Source: Escherichia phage SM_A8
DNA: 44,559 nt
Sequence record: PP920553.1
Strand: one strand, 5' to 3'
Position numbers and translations under genes: made by a program. Position 1 is the stretch's first letter, and each line of letters opens with the position of its first letter. This document shows, in pieces, positions 26,558 to 33,798 of this stretch. The notes under the pieces are model-generated. The model had not been told where the DNA came from and did not search any database. It worked only from the letters and a program-made list of their open reading frames with translations.

Positions 26558-26881
26558 TTACGCATAAAAGTTCGTGTCGCGTGCAACGTCTACCAGGTAA
26601 AGGTTGCTTATGCGGTTGCCGTAGTGCCCTGGAGTGCGCTGGCGGCACACAACGGCGAAGCCTGGAGGGATTGTATTGCCCGTCGCAATAATCCACGCCA
26701 CGCGTGCGCCAGACAGCGTCTTGCCGTTGCATTCGATACGGGTTCCGCCATCGGCGGTGTTGATGTTGCCAATCTTGCATCCGGTGGACTTCAGACGGAT
26801 GACTCCGGTTTTGCTGTCGTATGTGAATAGCTGATTGGTCATTGCCACTGAAAAGTCGATTGCGTCGAATGCAGTATTCAT
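26558..26881 (-). CDS. small HNH-like endonuclease (degenerate, putative)
   Basis: 107 aa; GK...ARVAW...GNRISNLYLV pattern resembles HNH_3; start ATGA-coupled to upstream gene, GAGGA RBS. Confidence 0.35.
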   Translation of the reverse strand: MNTAFDAIDFSVAMTNQLFTYDSKTGVIRLKSTGCKIGNINTADGGTRIECNGKTLSGARVAWIIATGNTIPPGFAVVCRQRTPGHYGNRISNLYLVDVARDTNFYA

Positions 26882-27588
26882 TTTAAATTTTCCTCGTTAA
26901 CCGCTATCGCGAAGCCGCGCGGGGTGAGTGAGCGGATTAATTTTGTACGAGCGGATTTACCACCGAGGCGACTATACTGCTTCGAGTACCCTTTTTCAAC
27001 GAAAACAGGTTTCTTCTCGGGCATACGGAAGCCGTTTCCAGTCCATAAGCAGGTCAGCTTCGGATATGAATCGCGGGCGTTGATGTATTCAGGGAAGAGC
27101 GGGTGTACGTCATCCTCTGGCAGATATCCGCCATACTCCCACGGGTCAAACGAGTGGTCCGGCTTACGCCACTGGGTGGAAAGCACGCTGCGCGGATTCT
27201 CAATCATATATGGCACTTCGAAGAAATCACCCAGGTAAGCTGCGATCTTCGCGGTGCGCACCGCCTTAAGCTGGAAGGCAGGGTCGCGGGCGCGTTTGCG
27301 CGGGAAAGCTGGCGCACCGCTAACCGCCAGATCCGTACACGGCGGGAATGCGTAAATGATATCCGGCGTGCCGAAATCGCCATTCATCGCGCGATCCACG
27401 AAGTCCAGGTCGATAAACTCATTACGATAGCGAATGCCGCGGCCATAGATCCGGTAGTCCAGGTAAGACCCGTGATCGGCTTCGGAGTAGTTGAAGCAAT
27501 AACACTTATGCCCCATCTCGGCAGCACGCTCAATCATCAAGCCGCTGCCGTCAAACAATGACCAGATTGTCATTTTAGCAATAGTCAT
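26878..27588 (-). CDS. cytosine-C5 methyltransferase-like protein (short)
   Basis: motif I-like LFDGSGL, motif IV-like FPPCTDLAVSG (PC motif), motif VI-like ENP; only 236 aa so the target recognition region may be minimal. Confidence 0.5.
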   Translation of the reverse strand: MTIAKMTIWSLFDGSGLMIERAAEMGHKCYCFNYSEADHGSYLDYRIYGRGIRYRNEFIDLDFVDRAMNGDFGTPDIIYAFPPCTDLAVSGAPAFPRKRARDPAFQLKAVRTAKIAAYLGDFFEVPYMIENPRSVLSTQWRKPDHSFDPWEYGGYLPEDDVHPLFPEYINARDSYPKLTCLWTGNGFRMPEKKPVFVEKGYSKQYSRLGGKSARTKLIRSLTPRGFAIAVNEENLK

Positions 27589-29009
27589 TTGCGCGCCTTT
27601 TTAGCTTTCATGTATTCCATTAAATCGTCCTGTATATCTCGCTTACTGTCGCGACGTTCGGCGACCAGTTCATCCAGTGTGCCGCGCGCCTGGATAATGT
27701 AGACGAATACCGGACGAGGGTGCCCAGCTTGCATCTGGCGGACAGGCCCGATACGTTCCACGATCTGCGCAAAGTGCTCATAGTTCCAGGTGTCGGAAAA
27801 GATAGCAAGGTGGTGTCCCCCATCCTGCAAGTTAAGGCCGTGACCCGCCGATGCCGGGTGCGCGAACATGATGGGGATCTCGCCCCTGTTCCACGCTTCC
27901 ATATCCTTATTGCCCTGCTTTCCTTTACCCAACGCGACGCCGTGCGGGAATTTCTTCTTAAGACGTGCTAAGTCATGCTTGTACTGGTATGCGACGAGCA
28001 ACGGCGCGCCGTTCAACTCCTCCACGATACTTTCCAGCGCGTCCAGTTTAGCGTCGTGGATTTTAACCCATTCGTCGGTGCGCTCGCCGTCTTCGTCGAC
28101 CTTATACACGGCCCCGGAAGCAAGCTGAAGGCACTTAATAGTCTTCGAAGCAGCGTTCGCCGCCTCCACCGTTCCGCTTTCCAGTTCGGCAAATAGCTCC
28201 GCCTCAAACTGGTCATAAATCTTGCGGGCTTTCTTCGGCAGGTCCACAACAACCGGCGTATAGATTGGCTTGTCACACCCGAAGTATTCAGCCGCATCAA
28301 CGGTGAGCGACACGTCGGACAGGCGTTGTTGTATTTCCTTCTCGGAGTTTTTTAGCGGGGCGTGCTGCATAGTGAAGCTGCCAGGCTTAACCGGCTTGCT
28401 AATAAACCAGCGGTCTGTGAATGCCTTATAACTACTGCCGAGGCGTTCGCCACCGTCGACAAACCACGTCTGACCCCACAGGTCTTTCAGTCCGTTTGGT
28501 GCGGGTGTGCCGGTTAGGTTAATCCAGCGCTTGACGTGCTTATGTGCAATAGCCGCCAGTGCGCGAGCGCGCTTGCTGCCTTGCTTGCTGCGGTAGCCTT
28601 TCAGCTTAGTGGATTCATCGGCAACAACGACCGTAAAGGGCCACTCGTCGCCGCAATACTCTACAAGCCACTCAACCACATCATAGTTAACGCAAACCAC
28701 GTTAGCGTCGCTCTCCAGCGCTGCAATGCGGTCCTTCTCTGGACCAGTGCCGTCTACTACCAGCAGGGCTGGGAAGCGCCATTTCTCCTGCTCCGGGGGC
28801 CAGGTGCCGGACGCAACGCGCAGCGGGGCCAGCACCAGTACGCGGTCCTCCTGGTTGGACAGGATACCCGTCTGGAACATTTTATTCAGCGCCCACATAG
28901 TCGCGCCGGTTTTACCCGACCCCATTGTCGCCCATATATTGCATCGCTTATGCTTGAGGATGAACGCGGTTATCAACTTCTGATATTCGCGACGTCGGAA
29001 ACGTGCCAT
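27585..29009 (-). CDS. SNF2-family (superfamily 2) DNA helicase
   Basis: start at MARFRRR (ATG 29009, RBS AAGGCGGAA); Walker A ATMGSGKTG, DExx box VVADEST, SNF2 motif LTGTPAPNG. Confidence 0.75.
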   Translation of the reverse strand: MARFRRREYQKLITAFILKHKRCNIWATMGSGKTGATMWALNKMFQTGILSNQEDRVLVLAPLRVASGTWPPEQEKWRFPALLVVDGTGPEKDRIAALESDANVVCVNYDVVEWLVEYCGDEWPFTVVVADESTKLKGYRSKQGSKRARALAAIAHKHVKRWINLTGTPAPNGLKDLWGQTWFVDGGERLGSSYKAFTDRWFISKPVKPGSFTMQHAPLKNSEKEIQQRLSDVSLTVDAAEYFGCDKPIYTPVVVDLPKKARKIYDQFEAELFAELESGTVEAANAASKTIKCLQLASGAVYKVDEDGERTDEWVKIHDAKLDALESIVEELNGAPLLVAYQYKHDLARLKKKFPHGVALGKGKQGNKDMEAWNRGEIPIMFAHPASAGHGLNLQDGGHHLAIFSDTWNYEHFAQIVERIGPVRQMQAGHPRPVFVYIIQARGTLDELVAERRDSKRDIQDDLMEYMKAKKARK

Positions 29010-29013
29010 TTCT

Positions 29014-29232
29014 TTATTCCGCCTTTTTCCAGACTTCGGTTTCACTGTTCCAGTTCCTTTTTGTGGCGTCGTAGTTGGTGCGGTGACCGATGTGCACACC
29101 CGTCGCCCGGAAGCTCTTAAATTTTTGCCAGCATACCGTCAACGGCAGCGGGTCATTCAGTCCCGCAATAAACCATACGCGATCGCCTGGTTTACATTCG
29201 CCCAGCTTGGTGAGTCGGTAATGTTCTTTCAT
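29014..29232 (-). CDS. hypothetical protein
   Basis: ATG 29232 with GGGAG RBS; stop 4 nt upstream of helicase start. Confidence 0.45.
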   Translation of the reverse strand: MKEHYRLTKLGECKPGDRVWFIAGLNDPLPLTVCWQKFKSFRATGVHIGHRTNYDATKRNWNSETEVWKKAE

Positions 29233-29275
29233 CGTCATGTCTCCCAAAAATGGCGGGACAAGCCCGCCGTATTGA

Positions 29276-29449
29276 TTATTCTTGTTCTGCGCGATAGCGG
29301 CGCTGCCGTTCGCGCTCTTTCTTATTGCGGCACGATTTGCACTCAGCCCGATGACCGTCTGGACTTCGCGCAGTCTTACCGGTGTATTTGTGGAACTGGG
29401 ACAGCGGCTTGATGCAGCCGCAATTACTACAACGTTTTTCTTCAATCAT
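29276..29449 (-). CDS. small zinc-ribbon protein
   Basis: 57 aa with CxxC ... CxxC (CSNCGC ... CKSC); GAGGA RBS. Confidence 0.45.
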   Translation of the reverse strand: MIEEKRCSNCGCIKPLSQFHKYTGKTARSPDGHRAECKSCRNKKERERQRRYRAEQE

Positions 29450-29489
29450 TTCTAAAATCCTCGGTAGTGCTATCCGGCACACTATACCG

Positions 29490-29768
29490 CTACGCGACCA
29501 ATTCAGCAACCAATAAATCACAGTCGGCTATGTTGTCGATAACGCGAACGTCAGCACCGCGGCGGGCCATTCGCTCGTGCTCACGTACCTGGTGCGGCTT
29601 CGGTTTTCCTCCGGGGCGCTTCACTTCGACGAACACTATTTTGCCGTTGATGATAATAATCAGGTCGGGCGCACCTGCGCGCCCCTCCCATGCCAGTTTT
29701 CGGCAGAATCCGCCTACCTCTTTCACCCGTCGCATCAGGTGATTTTGCACCTTGCCTTCTGGTGTCAT
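29490..29768 (-). CDS. VRR-NUC domain nuclease
   Basis: PD-(D/E)XK pattern: GAPDLIIII ... EVKRPGGK ... Q; ATGA-coupled to upstream HNH gene. Confidence 0.6.
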   Translation of the reverse strand: MTPEGKVQNHLMRRVKEVGGFCRKLAWEGRAGAPDLIIIINGKIVFVEVKRPGGKPKPHQVREHERMARRGADVRVIDNIADCDLLVAELVA

Positions 29769-30367
29769 TGTCGGCTTTTCCTTACGGCAGCGATGGCAGG
29801 TCCGATAAACTTCTTCATTTCGTCCGGGGTAAACCGGTCCCCGCGGGCTATGTTGCACTCTACGCAGCACGGCACGCAGTTATCTTTCGTATGGCCTACT
29901 GCGTTGTCGAGTCGGTCCGCGCCATTGTCGCCGGTGAATCCGCAGTATGCGCATGGTTGAGAAGTAAGGCGTAGCACGTCCTCGGTGGTTAGGTCGGTGT
30001 TTAACCCCTTCCTTTCGTCCGCCTTACGGTACTGAAAGAGCTTATAGTAAGCTCGGATCTCTGGTGTCCGGCGGTTGTACTCACGGCGGGACTTATTAGA
30101 GCACGACCGGCATTCTTTACAAATGTGTGACTGGCTTGCCCTGTTTCCGGGCCGGAAGTTTTCCGGCGTAAGCGGCTTGCGTTCCCCGCACTGACGGCAC
30201 GTTACGATCTCCCCGGTATACTCTCGCCATACTTCGCGCGGCGGCGCTCCTCTTTCCTTATCTCGTCTCTCTTTCTTATACGACGCCATGCATTTGGCGC
30301 ACCACGACTGACCCTTGTTGAAAGCGGACTCGTCTTTATCCGTATTACAACGCCCACAATGTTTCAT
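29765..30367 (-). CDS. HNH endonuclease with N-terminal zinc-ribbon repeats
   Basis: several CxxC pairs, then C-terminal HNH motif DRLDNAVGHTKDNCVPCCVECNIARG. Confidence 0.6.
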   Translation of the reverse strand: MKHCGRCNTDKDESAFNKGQSWCAKCMASYKKERRDKERGAPPREVWREYTGEIVTCRQCGERKPLTPENFRPGNRASQSHICKECRSCSNKSRREYNRRTPEIRAYYKLFQYRKADERKGLNTDLTTEDVLRLTSQPCAYCGFTGDNGADRLDNAVGHTKDNCVPCCVECNIARGDRFTPDEMKKFIGPAIAAVRKSRQ

Positions 30368-30434
30368 ATACACCCCCGAAAAAGAAAACGCCAGACAATA
30401 TTGCCCGACGTTTCCGCTAAAAGCAACATTTCCG

Positions 30435-32726
30435 CTACTTGCGGTATCGATACATACAATCACCTTCGGCGGCAAGTGGGAAGCCTTTCGCCCAAATAGG
30501 CAGGTCGCACATCAGCGCGCAAAGCTCCTCTGTCGTGTAGTCGTCGGTGTCCGGCACTTCTGTGATCAATTCATCATGCACCGATAGAACGATTTCATAG
30601 CCCGCAGCTTCAACGCCAGGCATTGACCAGGCGAGAATATCACGGCACAACGCCTGTACTATGTTCTCCGTCAGTTTGCCGCCGTAGGTATACTGGAAGC
30701 CCCACTGGCGCGTCGTCTGATTCTCGCCCTGATATTTAATGCGTGTGCTGGTGCGCTTCTTGCCGGTGTCTTCGTCAATCTCGGTCGTGACAGACAGCGC
30801 GATGCCCGGGTAGCTCATGATGCGCCCCGACGGCAACTCAATTTTCAACCACCACCCCGCGGCGTTCGGGTCGTCGCGCTCCTCGTCAAAGGTTGGGTCG
30901 TGCTTCGCCTTCGTACGGACAATCTTGAGCGCTTTTCTACCGTCCGGGCGAACGTTCGCACCAGCCCAGTATGCTTTGCCCGGATTGCGGATTGCACACA
31001 ACACCGCGTCCTCAAGCTCGGCCCAAAATGCTACCGTCTTCGGGTGAGCCTCACGCCACATACGTTTGATCGCGTCACAAGTCAGCCATACGTTTTTCGG
31101 CAGTATGTATGTTGGACGCTCGTCTTTCTTGCCTGGCTTCGGCGGGCGTTTCGCTTCGTTAATACGAGCGTATTCATAACCGCGTTTCGCCGCCGCCCAA
31201 ATGTGATCGGGGAATGTGCCCTTCATCACGTCCGCCATAGTGTAAAGGTCGAGGCCCAGGTTTTTAGCGAACTGCAAGAACGCCGCGACTCCGCCACCAT
31301 AGCCCAGTCCCAATTCGCACGCCTTACCGATCTGGCGTAAGTCCTTGCGGTTGGCTTTAATGTAGTCCGGGTCCAGGCCGAACATCTTACCGGCAGTCTC
31401 ACAATAGATATCGCGACCGGCCATAAACACCATTAGCGCGGTTTTCTCGCCCGCGATCCAGGCAAGTCCACGCCCTTCCACGTTGGAGAAGTCCGCTACG
31501 ACAAACTTCTTACCCTTAGCCGGAATAATGCACCCGCGAACGGTCGAGGCCGTTAACTTCGATATGTCATACGCCCAGTGTGCAGTCCCGCGTAACAGGG
31601 AGTTGATGCCGTTGGTGAGCATGTGCGACCGCACCCAATAAGAAACGTCGCTCTCGCCATCACGGCGCTTAATCTTCCCTTCGTGGTCGTCGCTATACTC
31701 GCCGCGTGCCAGGTTTTGCGGCTGGAAGCCCTTACCGGCCCAGCGTAGCGTGCGCTTTGCCCCACCATACTGAAGACAACCACGGCGGCGACCATCGGCG
31801 GACAGGCCATTGACAAGCGGATTGTATTTAGTAGATGCCGTTGATGACGCACCGAGGCGCATTTCGATAAGCGCTTTGCCTTCGTCGGGGAAATCCGGGT
31901 CTTCAAGCAGGTCGTTAAGTGTGGATTTCTGCGCGTTGTGGATCGTGAACGCCGGGGCGATATCACGCAGGATTGGCAGGAAGTCATTGCCGGTCAGCTT
32001 ACCGCCAAATCGCTCCCAGGCTTCTTCCTTCAATTCTTCCTTATGCGCCTGCACCGCTTTGATCGCGGCGTTCGCCAGGTCAACGTCCACATAGAAGCCG
32101 CGGTCGTTGATCAACTGGTCGATAAGCAGGATTTCATCTTCCTTCGGAGTATTACCCCAGTCCGGTATGCGCCAGTAGACTTCACGCATTGCGATAATAT
32201 CCAGCGCGGCATAGCGCAGAAATTTGGCCCACTCTTCTGGGTGAGTCTCGCGAGTGTAGCGGCGGATTTTGTAGGTCTTAGGGGTAGGCTTACAGAATCG
32301 TTTAATCAGCGCCTTGCCTGCCTTATCCTTCGCGTGCTCTGCGTCAACGCCCAGCACCTGGCACTGCATATCGAGGCTGCCGGGGAGAGCGTGGCGAAAG
32401 GCCATAATCATGGTGTCTTCGATCTGGCTTACCGGCAGGTCAATACCCCACTTCTCGCGAATGACCAGGCGGTCAAACAGGAGGCCGTTAGCCATCACTA
32501 TTTTTGCTTTCTTGCGGGATACCCTGCGGAGCGCCTTGCGCAGTTCACGCGGCATTGTTGGGGACTCGGTGCAATCCCATGTCTGCACGCGGCCCTCATC
32601 GATGGCGTAGGTGCAAATCATAATCTCGGTGGTTGGGTGCTCTGCGTAGGCATATGCGCCCACTTTCTTCAGATCCACCCCGCTAAATGTCTCGGTATCG
32701 AGAAAAAGTCGTTCGAAGTCTTTCAT
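30435..32726 (-). CDS. family A DNA polymerase (Pol I-like) with 3-5 exonuclease domain
   Basis: Exo I motif FLDTETFSG, O-helix-like RQIGKACELGLGYGGG, motif C SVHDE; 763 aa. Confidence 0.85.
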   Translation of the reverse strand: MKDFERLFLDTETFSGVDLKKVGAYAYAEHPTTEIMICTYAIDEGRVQTWDCTESPTMPRELRKALRRVSRKKAKIVMANGLLFDRLVIREKWGIDLPVSQIEDTMIMAFRHALPGSLDMQCQVLGVDAEHAKDKAGKALIKRFCKPTPKTYKIRRYTRETHPEEWAKFLRYAALDIIAMREVYWRIPDWGNTPKEDEILLIDQLINDRGFYVDVDLANAAIKAVQAHKEELKEEAWERFGGKLTGNDFLPILRDIAPAFTIHNAQKSTLNDLLEDPDFPDEGKALIEMRLGASSTASTKYNPLVNGLSADGRRRGCLQYGGAKRTLRWAGKGFQPQNLARGEYSDDHEGKIKRRDGESDVSYWVRSHMLTNGINSLLRGTAHWAYDISKLTASTVRGCIIPAKGKKFVVADFSNVEGRGLAWIAGEKTALMVFMAGRDIYCETAGKMFGLDPDYIKANRKDLRQIGKACELGLGYGGGVAAFLQFAKNLGLDLYTMADVMKGTFPDHIWAAAKRGYEYARINEAKRPPKPGKKDERPTYILPKNVWLTCDAIKRMWREAHPKTVAFWAELEDAVLCAIRNPGKAYWAGANVRPDGRKALKIVRTKAKHDPTFDEERDDPNAAGWWLKIELPSGRIMSYPGIALSVTTEIDEDTGKKRTSTRIKYQGENQTTRQWGFQYTYGGKLTENIVQALCRDILAWSMPGVEAAGYEIVLSVHDELITEVPDTDDYTTEELCALMCDLPIWAKGFPLAAEGDCMYRYRK

Positions 32727-32951: not shown

Positions 32952-33734
32952 TTAACGGCGGCGACGTTTACGTGGTGCTTCGTCTTCGTCGTCGTCCTCA
33001 TCTTCGTCATCGCGTGGCTTACGACGTTTGCGAGGTTTTTCATCTTCCTCATCGTCGTCGTCATCGCGGCGCTTGGATTTCTTGGACTTGCGCGGCTTGT
33101 CATCTTCATCATCGTCATCACGACGTTTTGACTTTTTGGACTTGCGCGGTGCTTCGTCTTCGTCGTCGTTGTCCAGGTCTTCATCGGAGCAAGAAGACCC
33201 GCCACCTCCGAAGGCTTCGCCGTCTTCACGGAATCGCAGACCCAGCAAGCCAGCACCGAGTCCCTTGCCGTTGGTATTGTTCCACGCCCAAATATCCAGG
33301 GACACATTGCAATAACAACCGGAGTAGATCTCCTGGCCTTCAATCTCGTCGCCGTCGATGGTCAGACCTTGTTCAGTCTGCTTCTCGCCGAGTGACGTTT
33401 GAATGATTGGTTGTTTGAACGATTTGGCGTTGATGTACAACATGCCTTCAAATTCTTCGGTTACTTCGTCACGCTCGTCACCGTCGCGAACTGCGCATTC
33501 CTTAGAATCCTGGGCGTAGTGGCGGTCCATCCACTTATCAGCATTCTTCTCGGATTTCAGCTTGTCGGTGAGCACTGCGCGCGCTGCCGCTTCCACTTTG
33601 TCCACCTGCGGATCTTCTTTATCAAGAAGAATCACTGCACGGTATGCCGGTTTTTGTCCATCCTGTTTAGGGGTATCACGTTCCCAAATTTTAAGGAAAC
33701 ATACGCGCACATTTTTCAGGTTGACTTTAGCCAT
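32952..33734 (-). CDS. hypothetical protein with repetitive charged C-terminal tail (possible ssDNA-binding protein)
   Basis: ATG 33734 with GAGGA RBS; N-terminus MAKVNLKNVRVCF; C-terminal alternating poly-D/E and PRKSKKSKRR blocks from tandem DNA repeats. Confidence 0.5.
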   Translation of the reverse strand: MAKVNLKNVRVCFLKIWERDTPKQDGQKPAYRAVILLDKEDPQVDKVEAAARAVLTDKLKSEKNADKWMDRHYAQDSKECAVRDGDERDEVTEEFEGMLYINAKSFKQPIIQTSLGEKQTEQGLTIDGDEIEGQEIYSGCYCNVSLDIWAWNNTNGKGLGAGLLGLRFREDGEAFGGGGSSCSDEDLDNDDEDEAPRKSKKSKRRDDDDEDDKPRKSKKSKRRDDDDDEEDEKPRKRRKPRDDEDEDDDEDEAPRKRRRR

Positions 33735-33798
33735 TTTCCAATTCCTCATTTTCACATATATCGGGGTTATTATGAGCCACCCCGTTCGGCTTGGTTGC

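What the first reader, a model, noticed from the sequence alone, without database searches (positions are those of the whole stretch)
29014..30367. Compact nuclease/zinc-ribbon block between helicase and polymerase
Four translationally coupled small genes sit between the SNF2 helicase and the DNA polymerase: a 71-aa protein, a 57-aa zinc ribbon, a VRR-NUC nuclease and an HNH endonuclease with N-terminal CxxC repeats. HNH and VRR-NUC genes between essential replication genes may be homing-type insertions or processing nucleases for replication/packaging.
Basis: partly seen in the sequence, partly recalled or inferred. Interest (0 to 1): 0.4.

Follow-up and report, generated by a model that had tools for sequence, protein, structure and literature searches.

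The report
Optional HNH gene beside phage resolvase
This Dhillonvirus-type coliphage carries three conserved small genes, one of them a Holliday-junction resolvase, next to an optional PacI-like HNH nuclease gene found in about one in six relatives; it looks like an ordinary selfish homing-endonuclease cassette, so the finding is real but not surprising.

Summary
The four minus-strand genes exist at the stated coordinates: ORF74 (29014-29238), a 57-aa zinc ribbon (29276-29449), a 92-aa VRR-NUC (29490-29768) and a 200-aa HNH (29765-30367). They lie between an SNF2 helicase and PolA. Only HNH/VRR-NUC overlap (ATGA), so the four genes are not all translationally coupled.

The window is a Dhillonvirus (HK578-like) genome. 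ORF74, the zinc ribbon and VRR-NUC occur in about 164 phage records. They are intact and under purifying selection, so they are core genes and not insertions. VRR-NUC is a close homologue of the solved SETP3 resolvase-like nuclease 4QBN.

The HNH gene occurs in only 27 of 164 records. It fills a polymorphic slot between the PolA stop and the VRR-NUC start. Other phages have this slot empty, or holding a 63-aa ORF, a 110-aa ORF, remnants, or an HNH-ORF63 chimera.

The cassette brings a terminator hairpin and nine linked substitutions in the last 25 nt of polA. Its distribution shows no phylogenetic signal on the flanking genes. A 48%-identical homologue sits at the same place, equally sporadic, in Kagunavirus.

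The protein is PacI-like (profile E=1.9e-11; Foldseek top hit).

Verdict: a free-standing homing-type HNH beside a conserved recombination trio, and a new member of a known kind.

The parts
27585..29009 (-). SNF2-type helicase, the downstream flank of the block; a core gene
   Evidence: PF00176 SNF2-rel_dom E=8e-11. Intact in 28/28 relatives, with third-position diversity 13 times that of positions 1-2.
29014..29238 (-). ORF74 (72 aa from the second ATG): a genus-restricted small protein predicted to form an SH3-like beta-barrel; function unknown
29252..29268 (-). Terminator-like hairpin (GGCGGGCTTGTCCCGCC followed by ATTTTT) between the zinc-ribbon gene and ORF74
   Evidence: Annotated as a terminator in phage PTXU06. 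The intergenic spacer is well conserved, pi 0.028.
29276..29449 (-). 57-aa Cys4 zinc-ribbon protein with a basic tail; homologous to the second zinc ribbon of the HNH protein; a core gene
   Evidence: BLASTP against HNH residues 57-100 gives 41% identity, E=1e-4. phrog_5558 3e-16 and phrog_1035 3.5e-10. Intact in 28/28, third-position ratio 10. No Pfam or PDB match.
29490..29768 (-). VRR-NUC nuclease of the PD-(D/E)xK type (D35, E48, K50); predicted dimeric Holliday-junction resolvase; a core gene
   Evidence: PF08774 above the gathering score. 4QBN (SETP3 saNUC) E=1.1e-22 and 4QBO E=2e-14. Standalone VRR-Nuc proteins are dimers that cut four-way junctions (PMC4103454). Present in all relatives.
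29765..30367 (-). Accessory PacI-like HNH endonuclease. Zinc ribbon 1 uses C4/C7/C23/C26. Zinc ribbon 2 uses C57/C60/C86/C89. The beta-beta-alpha-metal domain has Cys4 ligands C139/C142/C168/C171 and catalytic residues D151-R152, H159 and N172.
   Evidence: Profile against PDB: PacI 3LDY E=1.9e-11. Foldseek top hit 3ldy_A, E=1.6e-6. Invariant residues. Found in only 27 of 164 records. Intact in 14/14.
30368..30434 (-). Cassette leader: a 14-bp terminator-like hairpin (30415-30384) with a U-tract, then GGGGG as ribosome-binding site before the HNH ATG. Absent from empty-slot phages.
   Evidence: z = -3.7. The hairpin is kept in all 9 sequence variants through one-sided changes. In empty alleles the pol stop overlaps the VRR-NUC ATG as TAATG.
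30435..30459 (-). Last 25 nt of polA in the HNH-linked form (GAT TGT ATG TAT CGA TAC CGC AAG TAG). Most HNH-less phages have GAC ATT ATG TAC AGG TAC AGG AAG TAA. This tract is the left boundary of the cassette and a candidate target or immunity site.
   Evidence: Nine differences, only one of them non-synonymous (C/I). Present in 14/14 HNH+ against 2/15 HNH- genomes, Fisher P=1.8e-6. EP23 is the only empty-slot phage in the collection that matches this 55-nt junction with the HNH-type pol end in full.
30435..32726 (-). Family A DNA polymerase, the upstream flank; uninterrupted here
   Evidence: PF00476 4.6e-15. Relatives carry an intron (SO-1) or an intein (Pubbukkers) in this gene.

Best explanation
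The interval is a composite of two parts.

(1) A conserved trio. ORF74, a solo zinc-ribbon protein and a VRR-NUC nuclease belong to the Dhillonvirus replication and recombination module. VRR-NUC most likely acts as a dimeric resolvase. It would cut four-way junctions and reversed forks made during recombination-dependent replication and by the adjacent SNF2 translocase, clearing branches before packaging.

(2) An optional, self-contained cassette inserted exactly between the polA stop codon and the VRR-NUC start codon. It consists of a recoded 25-nt polA end, a terminator hairpin, a ribosome-binding site, and a 200-aa PacI-like HNH endonuclease whose stop overlaps the VRR-NUC ATG.

Proposed mechanism for the cassette:
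- During co-infection the enzyme binds DNA through its two zinc ribbons.
- It cuts the HNH-less allele in or near the polA 3' end.
- The phage's own recombination machinery repairs the break from the HNH+ genome and copies in the cassette together with the protective recoded polA end.
- The upstream terminator keeps expression low.

Shown here: the polymorphism, the cassette boundaries, the linked polA-end haplotype, degenerate copies, the lack of phylogenetic signal, the same position in a second genus, the PacI-like fold and catalytic residues, and purifying selection.

Inferred: nuclease activity, the location of the cut, and biased inheritance.
For: - The three-gene part aligns in 164 phage records. 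Alignment stops exactly at the VRR-NUC start in about 135 of them.
- HNH DNA is in 27 records, at one place in each.
- Slot states among relatives: empty (TAATG overlap), ORF63 (56 records), ORF110 (HK578 only), remnants (PTXU06, Oekolampad, Dru_SM5), and an HNH-ORF63 chimera lacking the catalytic motif (bob).
- The HNH-linked polA end is present in 14/14 HNH+ against 2/15 HNH- genomes, P=1.8e-6. Differentiation between HNH+ and HNH- genomes (an Fst-like index) is about 0 everywhere else across about 5 kb of flanks.
- HNH state needs 9-10 Fitch steps on the helicase and VRR-NUC trees, the same as shuffled labels (9.5 +/- 1.4).
- The most divergent Dhillonvirus has the empty, Ile-type allele.
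- In Kagunavirus a 48%-identical homologue lies directly after polA. It also comes with a recoded polA end and a terminator hairpin, and occurs in only 4 records while K1G-like relatives lack it.
- More distant family members sit in unrelated contexts in Klebsiella, Streptomyces, Mycobacterium and Lactococcus phages.
- The protein is PacI-like. PacI's catalytic set is H42-R93-Y100-N113 (PMC3765158); R152, H159 and N172 align to the last three.
- All 14 ORFs are intact and the catalytic domain is nearly invariant.
- Free-standing homing endonuclease genes (HEGs) lie between conserved genes, co-convert their flanks and are damped by terminators (PMC2988022).
- PacI-like free-standing HNH genes are already recognised in Skunavirus (PMC12724721).
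- VRR-NUC matches 4QBN at E=1e-22, a family shown to form dimers and cut four-way junctions.
Against: - No cleavage or inheritance data exist for this enzyme.
- HNH gene diversity (mean pairwise identity 0.948) is only slightly lower than that of the flanks (0.93). The cassette is therefore an old, intermediate-frequency allele and not a recent sweep.
- The linked tract is short, lies on one side only, and can be broken up (EP23, HK578, Dru_SM5, uvig6251).
- Nine differences in 25 nt is not significant on divergence alone after correcting for all windows.
- The commonest occupant of the slot is a non-nuclease 63-aa ORF, so the slot is a general hot spot for accessory genes.
- In the passages retrieved from the Skunavirus study, only two I-HmuI-like enzymes are reported to reduce plating. 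No effect is reported there for the PacI-like one.
- My 14 versus 15 genome sample was chosen case-control, not at random.
Confidence: 0.7

Rival explanations
1. Passive accessory gene in a recombination hot spot. The HNH gene does not promote its own spread. It is one of several alternative cargo genes shuffled into the pol/VRR-NUC junction by ordinary homologous recombination. It is kept because it benefits the phage, for example by degrading host or competitor DNA or by countering a defence system.
For: The slot also holds non-nuclease cargo: ORF63 in 56 records and ORF110 in HK578. Flanks are fully mosaic in all genomes whatever the HNH state. HNH is at stable intermediate frequency and about as diverse as its flanks. 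It is under purifying selection.
Against: This does not explain why the HNH allele always carries a recoded polA end. It does not explain why a 48%-identical homologue sits at the same polA-proximal site, with the same cassette layout, in another genus. It does not explain the degenerate copies (bob, PTXU06), which are typical of the HEG gain-and-loss cycle.
Confidence: 0.17
2. Deletion polymorphism only. The HNH gene is ancestral to Dhillonviruses and is simply being lost in most lineages.
For: Remnants and a chimera show that deletions do occur (PTXU06, Oekolampad, bob). EP23 looks like a clean loss that kept the HNH-type polA end.
Against: Most empty-slot phages carry the other polA-end haplotype, with 9 differences, so they are not deletion derivatives of HNH+ alleles. 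The most divergent Dhillonvirus is empty and of the Ile type. Nine to ten state changes are needed on the flanking trees.
Confidence: 0.06
3. Packaging or processing HNH. The enzyme is a terminase cofactor, like HK97 gp74 or the GVE2-type HNH, or it is a T4 endonuclease VII-like resolvase, as some automatic annotations state.
For: phrog_1035 carries the label 'endonuclease VII'. Several GenBank records repeat that label.
Against: It is absent from 84% of close relatives. It lies in the replication module, between polA and VRR-NUC. No Pfam Endonuclease_7 or HNH model matches. The best structural relative is the sequence-specific enzyme PacI. A dedicated resolvase, VRR-NUC, is already encoded next door.
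Confidence: 0.04

Closest known systems
PacI restriction endonuclease (PDB 3LDY/3M7K)
   Same: It has the same beta-beta-alpha-metal nuclease core, flanked by Cys4 zinc sites. Arg replaces the canonical general-base His (D-R motif), and an Asn metal ligand follows CxxC. Profile E=1.9e-11 and Foldseek top hit.
   Different: PacI is a 142-aa bacterial type IIP restriction enzyme that uses Tyr100 as general base. The phage protein has His at that position (His or Tyr across the family). It also has an extra N-terminal zinc ribbon, and no methyltransferase partner was looked for beside it. Whether it is a dimer, and what sequence it recognises, are unknown.
PacI-like free-standing HNH endonucleases of lactococcal Skunavirus phages (e.g. 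phage 93; PMC12724721)
   Same: Same class: phage-encoded and variably present. They were classified as PacI-like by HHpred. Phage phi93 was hit by tblastn with the window protein at 31% identity over residues 115-188.
   Different: Different host and genus. Their insertion site is in the morphogenesis module, and they lack the double zinc-ribbon N-terminus.
T4 free-standing HNH homing endonuclease MobE, and the Seg enzymes (PMC2988022, PMC2790892)
   Same: They occupy intergenic positions between conserved replication or nucleotide-metabolism genes. They are sporadic among relatives, co-convert flanking markers, and are damped by terminators.
   Different: MobE has a canonical HNH motif and an unrelated DNA-binding region. 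T4 cleavage sites can lie hundreds of base pairs from the gene. Here the linked tract is only 25 nt long and directly abuts the cassette.
SETP3 VRR-Nuc (saNUC, PDB 4QBN) and phage P9 stNUC (4QBO)
   Same: Single-domain PD-(D/E)xK nucleases of about 92 aa, E=1e-22 and 2e-14. They come from phage replication modules, are dimeric and cut four-way junctions.
   Different: No biochemical data exist for the Dhillonvirus protein. saNUC itself was only weakly active in vitro.
I-HmuI / I-HmuII / I-BasI (my own knowledge: HNH homing endonucleases in introns of Bacillus phage polA genes)
   Same: HNH homing enzymes associated with phage family A polymerase genes.
   Different: They are intron-encoded, have canonical His-containing motifs and act as nicking enzymes. 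The gene here is free-standing and lies downstream of polA.

Membership tests
HNH / beta-beta-alpha-metal nucleases, PacI-like branch | Significant sequence and fold similarity to a solved member | tested here: met
   The family profile matches 3LDY at E=1.9e-11. The model (pLDDT 85) has 3ldy_A as Foldseek top hit at E=1.6e-6, followed by 4h9d and 3fc3.
HNH / beta-beta-alpha-metal nucleases, PacI-like branch | Cys4 zinc site bracketing the catalytic hairpin and helix, with Asp and Asn metal ligands | tested here: met
   C139, C142, C168, C171, D151 and N172 are invariant in 12 family members. They align to PacI C63/C66/C109/C112, D92 and N113.
HNH / beta-beta-alpha-metal nucleases, PacI-like branch | Arg in place of the canonical general-base His, with Tyr (PacI Y100) acting as base | tested here: inconclusive
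   R152 is invariant and aligns to PacI R93. The residue aligned to Y100 is H159 here, and His or Tyr across the family. PacI H42 has no conserved counterpart.
HNH (Pfam HNH, HNH_3, Endonuclease_7 models) | Match to a curated Pfam or NCBIfam HNH model | tested here: not met
   No family at E<=0.1 in Pfam or E<=1 in NCBIfam. None of 10 database homologues has a precomputed Pfam domain.
Free-standing homing endonuclease gene | Lies between genes that are conserved and adjacent in relatives lacking it | tested here: met
   In empty alleles the pol stop and the VRR-NUC start overlap as TAATG.
Free-standing homing endonuclease gene | Sporadic distribution that disagrees with the phylogeny of neighbouring genes | tested here: met
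   27 of 164 records. Nine to ten Fitch steps, against 9.5 +/- 1.4 for shuffled labels. Flank differentiation is about 0. The sample was chosen case-control.
Free-standing homing endonuclease gene | The HEG-bearing allele differs from the HEG-less allele at the target site (self-immunity), or shows a co-conversion tract | tested here: inconclusive
   Nine linked substitutions in the last 25 nt of polA, 14/14 against 2/15, P=1.8e-6. A similar recoding is seen in Kagunavirus. It is not shown that this tract is the recognition site.
Free-standing homing endonuclease gene | Degenerate or lost copies, as expected from the invasion-decay-loss cycle | tested here: met
   bob is a chimera lacking the catalytic motif. 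PTXU06 keeps a 31-nt remnant with the cassette's left junction. EP23 is empty but has the HNH-type polA end.
Free-standing homing endonuclease gene | Site-specific cleavage of the HEG-less allele and biased inheritance in co-infection | not testable with these tools
   This needs cleavage assays and phage crosses.
VRR-NUC (PF08774) Holliday-junction-resolvase-like nucleases | Pfam match above the gathering score, and the PD-(D/E)xK catalytic triad | tested here: met
   26.5 bits against 23.8. D35, E48 and K50 are conserved in the alignment to 4QBN and 4QBO.
VRR-NUC (PF08774) Holliday-junction-resolvase-like nucleases | Dimer that makes symmetric cuts in four-way junctions | not testable with these tools
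   Shown for psNUC, stNUC and saNUC (PMC4103454). Inferred here from the E=1e-22 homology.
Terminase-associated HNH (HK97 gp74 / GVE2 type) | Universal in the genus and encoded next to the terminase or portal genes | tested here: not met
   Absent from 84% of relatives. Its neighbours are polA and VRR-NUC.
Lar-like restriction alleviation protein (a label applied to the 57-aa protein) | Match to a curated Lar model | tested here: not met
   No Pfam or NCBIfam match. The phrog_5558 hit covers only profile positions 62-113 of 130, and the HNH N-terminus hits the same profile. What is shared is therefore the zinc-ribbon module, not a demonstrated Lar function.

The most novel reading that the evidence does not exclude
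A lineage of PacI-like (Arg-for-His) HNH enzymes specialises in the 3' end of phage family A polymerase genes in at least two siphovirus genera. It travels as a unit that carries its own immunity, in the form of a recoded polA terminus, and its own transcription terminator. The universally conserved 57-aa zinc-ribbon protein two genes downstream would then be a domesticated DNA-binding module of such an enzyme. Its present role might be as a regulator, or as a protector of the same locus. This would link a rare-cutting restriction enzyme family directly to phage homing elements.
Probability: 0.15. Interest if true: 0.5.

Novelty: new member of a known kind. Interest (0 to 1): 0.25.

Why it matters
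The finding gives a clean natural allelic series in easily grown E. coli phages, several of them in the BASEL and Danish wastewater collections. The series runs from an empty slot through HNH, alternative cargo, a chimera, a scar, and a resistant-type empty allele.

With these phages the specificity and drive of a PacI-like homing enzyme could be measured directly. The 25-nt candidate target makes the experiment simple.

It also corrects recurrent database labels: 'endonuclease VII', 'restriction endonuclease', and 'Lar-like' or 'kilA anti-repressor' for the zinc ribbon.

For phage biology in general it adds one more example of a familiar phenomenon and not a new principle.

Tried and rejected
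- Pfam and NCBIfam searches of the HNH, zinc-ribbon and ORF74 proteins gave nothing useful.
- A single-sequence PDB search of the HNH was only marginal, E=0.1. An alignment profile was needed.
- The word-indexed protein database returned few relatives: 10 for HNH, 7 for ORF74 and 5 for the zinc ribbon.
- An exhaustive profile search for ORF74 found only 6 clusters.
- IMG/VR added only 14 loci, mostly duplicates of GenBank phages.
- I looked for a graded co-conversion tract. Differentiation is confined to the last 25-35 nt of polA plus a weak signal up to about 200 nt, and there is none on the VRR-NUC side.
- I tested whether HNH is a recent invader through lower diversity. It is not clearly so, 0.948 against 0.93.
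- The excess divergence of the 25-nt tract is not significant on its own after Bonferroni correction. The association test is what carries weight.
- The original PacI structure paper (PMC2886031) is not held. PacI's catalytic residues were taken from PMC3765158 and PMC4081073.
Full report
**What is there**

ORF listing and direct reading show six consecutive minus-strand genes:
- an SNF2-type helicase (27585-29009, ATG at MARFRR);
- ORF74 (29014-29238);
- a 57-aa Cys4 zinc-ribbon protein (29276-29449);
- a 92-aa VRR-NUC (29490-29768);
- a 200-aa protein with two N-terminal CxxC...CxxC ribbons and a C-terminal nuclease-like motif (29765-30367);
- a 763-aa family A DNA polymerase (30435-32726).

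Pfam supports SNF2, DNA_pol_A and VRR_NUC (26.5 bits against a cut-off of 23.8). It gives nothing for the other three proteins, and NCBIfam gives nothing either. PHROGs places ORF74 in phrog_9291 (function unknown). It places the zinc ribbon in phrog_5558 and phrog_1035, and the 200-aa protein in phrog_1035, which is labelled 'endonuclease VII'.

The '71 aa' is really 72 or 74 aa. 'Four translationally coupled genes' overstates the case:
- HNH and VRR-NUC overlap by ATGA.
- ORF74 and the helicase are 4 nt apart.
- The remaining spacers are 40, 37 and 67 nt.
- Two of these spacers hold terminator-like hairpins: 29268-29252, and a 14-bp stem at 30415-30384 with z=-3.7.

**Context**

The window is a Dhillonvirus (HK578/SO-1-like coliphage) genome, about 94% identical to its nearest GenBank relatives over this region.

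A blastn search of the block finds 164 phage records. Only 27 cover it fully. About 135 align only over query positions 1-760, that is window 29010-29769, and stop at the VRR-NUC start codon. The HNH segment alone is found in 27 records, about 17 distinct phage names, at one place in each.

ORF74, the zinc ribbon and VRR-NUC are therefore conserved and syntenic. This holds even in the most divergent Dhillonvirus, at 80% identity. In 28 genomes their variation is concentrated at third codon positions, with ratios of 5.5 to 10, and the ORFs are intact in 26-28 of 28. One phage, Dru_SM5, has lost ORF74 and carries a cytosine methyltransferase gene between VRR-NUC and the zinc-ribbon gene. The trio is therefore not wholly immutable.

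**The slot**

Reading the junctions in 30 related genomes shows at least seven states between the polA stop and the VRR-NUC start:
- Empty, with the stop overlapping the start as TAATG: welsh, EK99P-1, EP23, LM40P1 and several metagenomic genomes.
- A 63-aa ORF (phrog_1222, function unknown), found in 56 records.
- An internally deleted ORF63 (Oekolampad).
- A 4-nt ORF63 scar (Dru_SM5).
- A 110-aa ORF with an HExxH motif, in HK578 only.
- The 200-aa HNH cassette.
- A 31-nt remnant that keeps the cassette's left junction (PTXU06).
- A chimera joining HNH residues 1 to about 150 to the ORF63 C-terminus at a GGCGCGG microhomology, which removes the catalytic motif (bob).

Every cargo gene ends in xAATGA, so its stop overlaps the VRR-NUC ATG.

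**Cassette anatomy and linkage**

All HNH+ genomes share three features: the 67-nt leader with the terminator hairpin, a G-rich ribosome-binding site, and a distinctive end to polA. The hairpin is kept in nine sequence variants through one-sided changes. Two phages have lost 19 nt of the leader between TAGCGGAAA direct repeats.

The two polA ends are:
- HNH+: GAT TGY ATG TAT CGN TAC CGC AAG TAG
- most HNH-: GAC ATT ATG TAC AGG TAC AGG AAG TAA

This is nine differences in 25 nt, of which only one changes the protein (Cys against Ile). The HNH-type end is present in 14 of 14 HNH+ genomes. Among 15 HNH- genomes it occurs in only two, the PTXU06 remnant and EP23 (Fisher P=1.8e-6). A collection-wide search shows that EP23 is the only empty-slot phage that matches the 55-nt junction carrying this end in full. 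HK578, Dru_SM5 and one uncultivated genome are intermediate.

Outside this tract, HNH+ and HNH- genomes are not differentiated over about 2 kb of polA and 2.9 kb downstream, with an Fst-like index near 0. HNH state needs as many changes on neighbour-joining trees of the helicase or of VRR-NUC-ORF74 as randomly shuffled labels do: 9-10 steps against 9.5 +/- 1.4. Only the proximal 900 nt of polA carry some signal, 6 against 10 steps, P=0.011.

HNH genes are 94.8% identical on average, against about 93% for the flanks. All 14 are intact and the catalytic domain is nearly invariant. The cassette is thus an old, selectively maintained allele at intermediate frequency. It moves among genomic backgrounds as a unit whose left edge lies 25-35 nt inside polA and whose right edge is the VRR-NUC ATG.

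**A second genus**

tblastn finds a 48%-identical homologue in four Kagunavirus-type phages (Bas72-74 and KMB35). It lies immediately downstream of polA. K1G, K1H, Bas70/71 and many others lack about 774 bp at exactly that place.

The cassette layout repeats:
- The polA end is recoded, ...SEMYRYAK* against ...AEMKRYAK*.
- A strong terminator hairpin follows.
- The HNH C-terminus re-creates GATGCCAAGTAA, so the downstream ORF keeps its start.

More distant relatives (25-45% identity) are scattered in unrelated contexts in Klebsiella, Raoultella, Streptomyces, Mycobacterium, Pseudomonas and Lactococcus phages.

**What the HNH protein is**

Twelve family members share invariant residues C57, C60, C89, C139, Y141, C142, G149, D151, R152, N155, N163, C168, C171, N172 and R175. 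Their profile matches the restriction enzyme PacI (3LDY) at E=1.9e-11, and the Geobacter HNH 4H9D at 2.5e-4. An AlphaFold model has mean pLDDT 85, and above 90 for residues 110-200. Its only significant Foldseek PDB hit is PacI, E=1.6e-6, followed by 4H9D and Hpy99I.

PacI is the HNH variant in which the usual general-base His is replaced by Arg. Its catalytic set is H42-R93-Y100-N113, and Tyr acts as the base (PMC3765158; PMC4081073). In the alignment D151-R152 correspond to D92-R93, H159 (His or Tyr across the family) to Y100, and N172 to N113.

'HNH endonuclease with N-terminal CxxC repeats' is therefore right, but the protein belongs to the PacI-like branch that Pfam does not cover. PacI-like free-standing HNH genes have already been named as a class in lactococcal Skunavirus phages (PMC12724721). 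One of those phages, phi93, is among the tblastn hits.

**The conserved trio**

VRR-NUC matches the crystal structures 4QBN (the VRR-Nuc of Salmonella phage SETP3) at E=1.1e-22 and 4QBO at E=2e-14. Its PD...ExK residues D35, E48 and K50 are conserved. These standalone domains are dimers that resemble archaeal Hjc and cut four-way junctions (PMC4103454). By homology and position I infer that this protein resolves junctions and reversed forks in concert with the neighbouring SNF2 translocase. This inference is not shown here.

The 57-aa protein is a single zinc ribbon with a basic helix. It is 41% identical to ribbon 2 of the HNH protein, E=1e-4. The 'Lar-like' and 'kilA' labels in databases rest on this shared module only.

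ORF74 is restricted to this phage group, with 6 clusters in 1.84 billion representative proteins. It is predicted with moderate confidence to form a small SH3-like barrel. Its role is unknown.

**Interpretation**

The features of the HNH gene fit what is described for free-standing homing endonucleases of T-even phages (PMC2988022):
- an intergenic position between conserved genes;
- sporadic distribution that disagrees with flanking phylogeny;
- a tightly linked and largely synonymous recoding of the adjacent essential gene;
- degenerate derivatives;
- the same site occupied in a second genus;
- a damping terminator.

I put about 0.7 on that reading. The main rival, at about 0.17, is that the gene is a passively recombining accessory gene in a hot spot. 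Support for the rival comes from the non-nuclease ORF63 being the commonest occupant of the slot, and from the cassette's age and intermediate frequency. Loss-only evolution and packaging or resolvase roles are unlikely for the reasons given above.

No cleavage, target or inheritance data exist. The polA-end tract is a candidate target, not a demonstrated one.

**Novelty and score**

The gene has been annotated as a putative HNH endonuclease since phage SO-1, and the class is known. What is new here is the allelic series, the cassette boundaries, the polA-end linkage and the parallel in Kagunavirus. That makes it a new member of a known kind, useful as an experimental system but not surprising. 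Interest 0.25.

Noticed in passing
window 32952-33755 (-): The 267-aa Gp2.5-like/DUF2815 single-strand-binding protein ends in a long tail of alternating acidic and basic repeats (...DDDEDEAPRKSKKSKRRDDDDEDDKPRKSKKSKRR...PRKRRRR).
   Followed up: no
window 26558-26881 (-): A 107-aa ORF next to the Dcm gene matches phrog_99 'HNH endonuclease' (7e-16) but no Pfam model. It is present in every relative fetched, and BASEL annotators call it a putative homing endonuclease. It is therefore a second, apparently fixed, HNH-like gene in the module.
   Followed up: partly
window 26878-27588 (-); L029 714-899; L034 634-819: The C5-cytosine methyltransferase gene is reduced to 186 nt in phages Teewinot and Shigella 1b. 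In Dru_SM5 a methyltransferase gene sits between VRR-NUC and the zinc-ribbon gene while ORF74 is missing (L038 1780-2718). This is another variable locus in the same module.
   Followed up: partly
L006 4870-5628 (SO-1 polA); one search left-flank alignment columns 1201-2100: SO-1 polA carries a group I intron with its own ORF, and phage Pubbukkers is annotated with an intein in polA. An insert of about 900 nt in the pol alignment is 99% identical between SO-1 and one HNH-less phage. The window's polA is uninterrupted. polA is thus a repeated target for different mobile elements in this genus.
   Followed up: no
window 29252-29268 (-): A conserved terminator-like hairpin lies inside the 'operon', between the zinc-ribbon gene and ORF74. 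It suggests attenuation ahead of ORF74 and the helicase.
   Followed up: partly
window 30119-30121 (-), HNH residue 83: The window's HNH has Cys83 (SHICKEC) where all 13 other HNH+ phages have Arg. This creates an extra CxxC-like spacing next to the true zinc ligands C86 and C89.
   Followed up: no
L012 3923-4700 (Kagunavirus Bas74): In the Kagunavirus cassette the HNH C-terminal codons re-create the sequence GATGCCAAGTAA, which in HNH-less phages is the end of polA. The overlapping 43-aa downstream ORF therefore keeps its start. The recoded polA end (MYRYAK) resembles the Dhillonvirus polA end (MYRYRK).
   Followed up: partly
GenBank records MG065648 (Campylobacter phage A144), OQ221563 (Acinetobacter phage NJ01), PQ843332 (88.6 kb): Records labelled as Campylobacter or Acinetobacter phages are Dhillonviruses 91-94% identical to coliphages. 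One E. coli phage record is about twice the genome length. The host labels and the assembly look doubtful.
   Followed up: no
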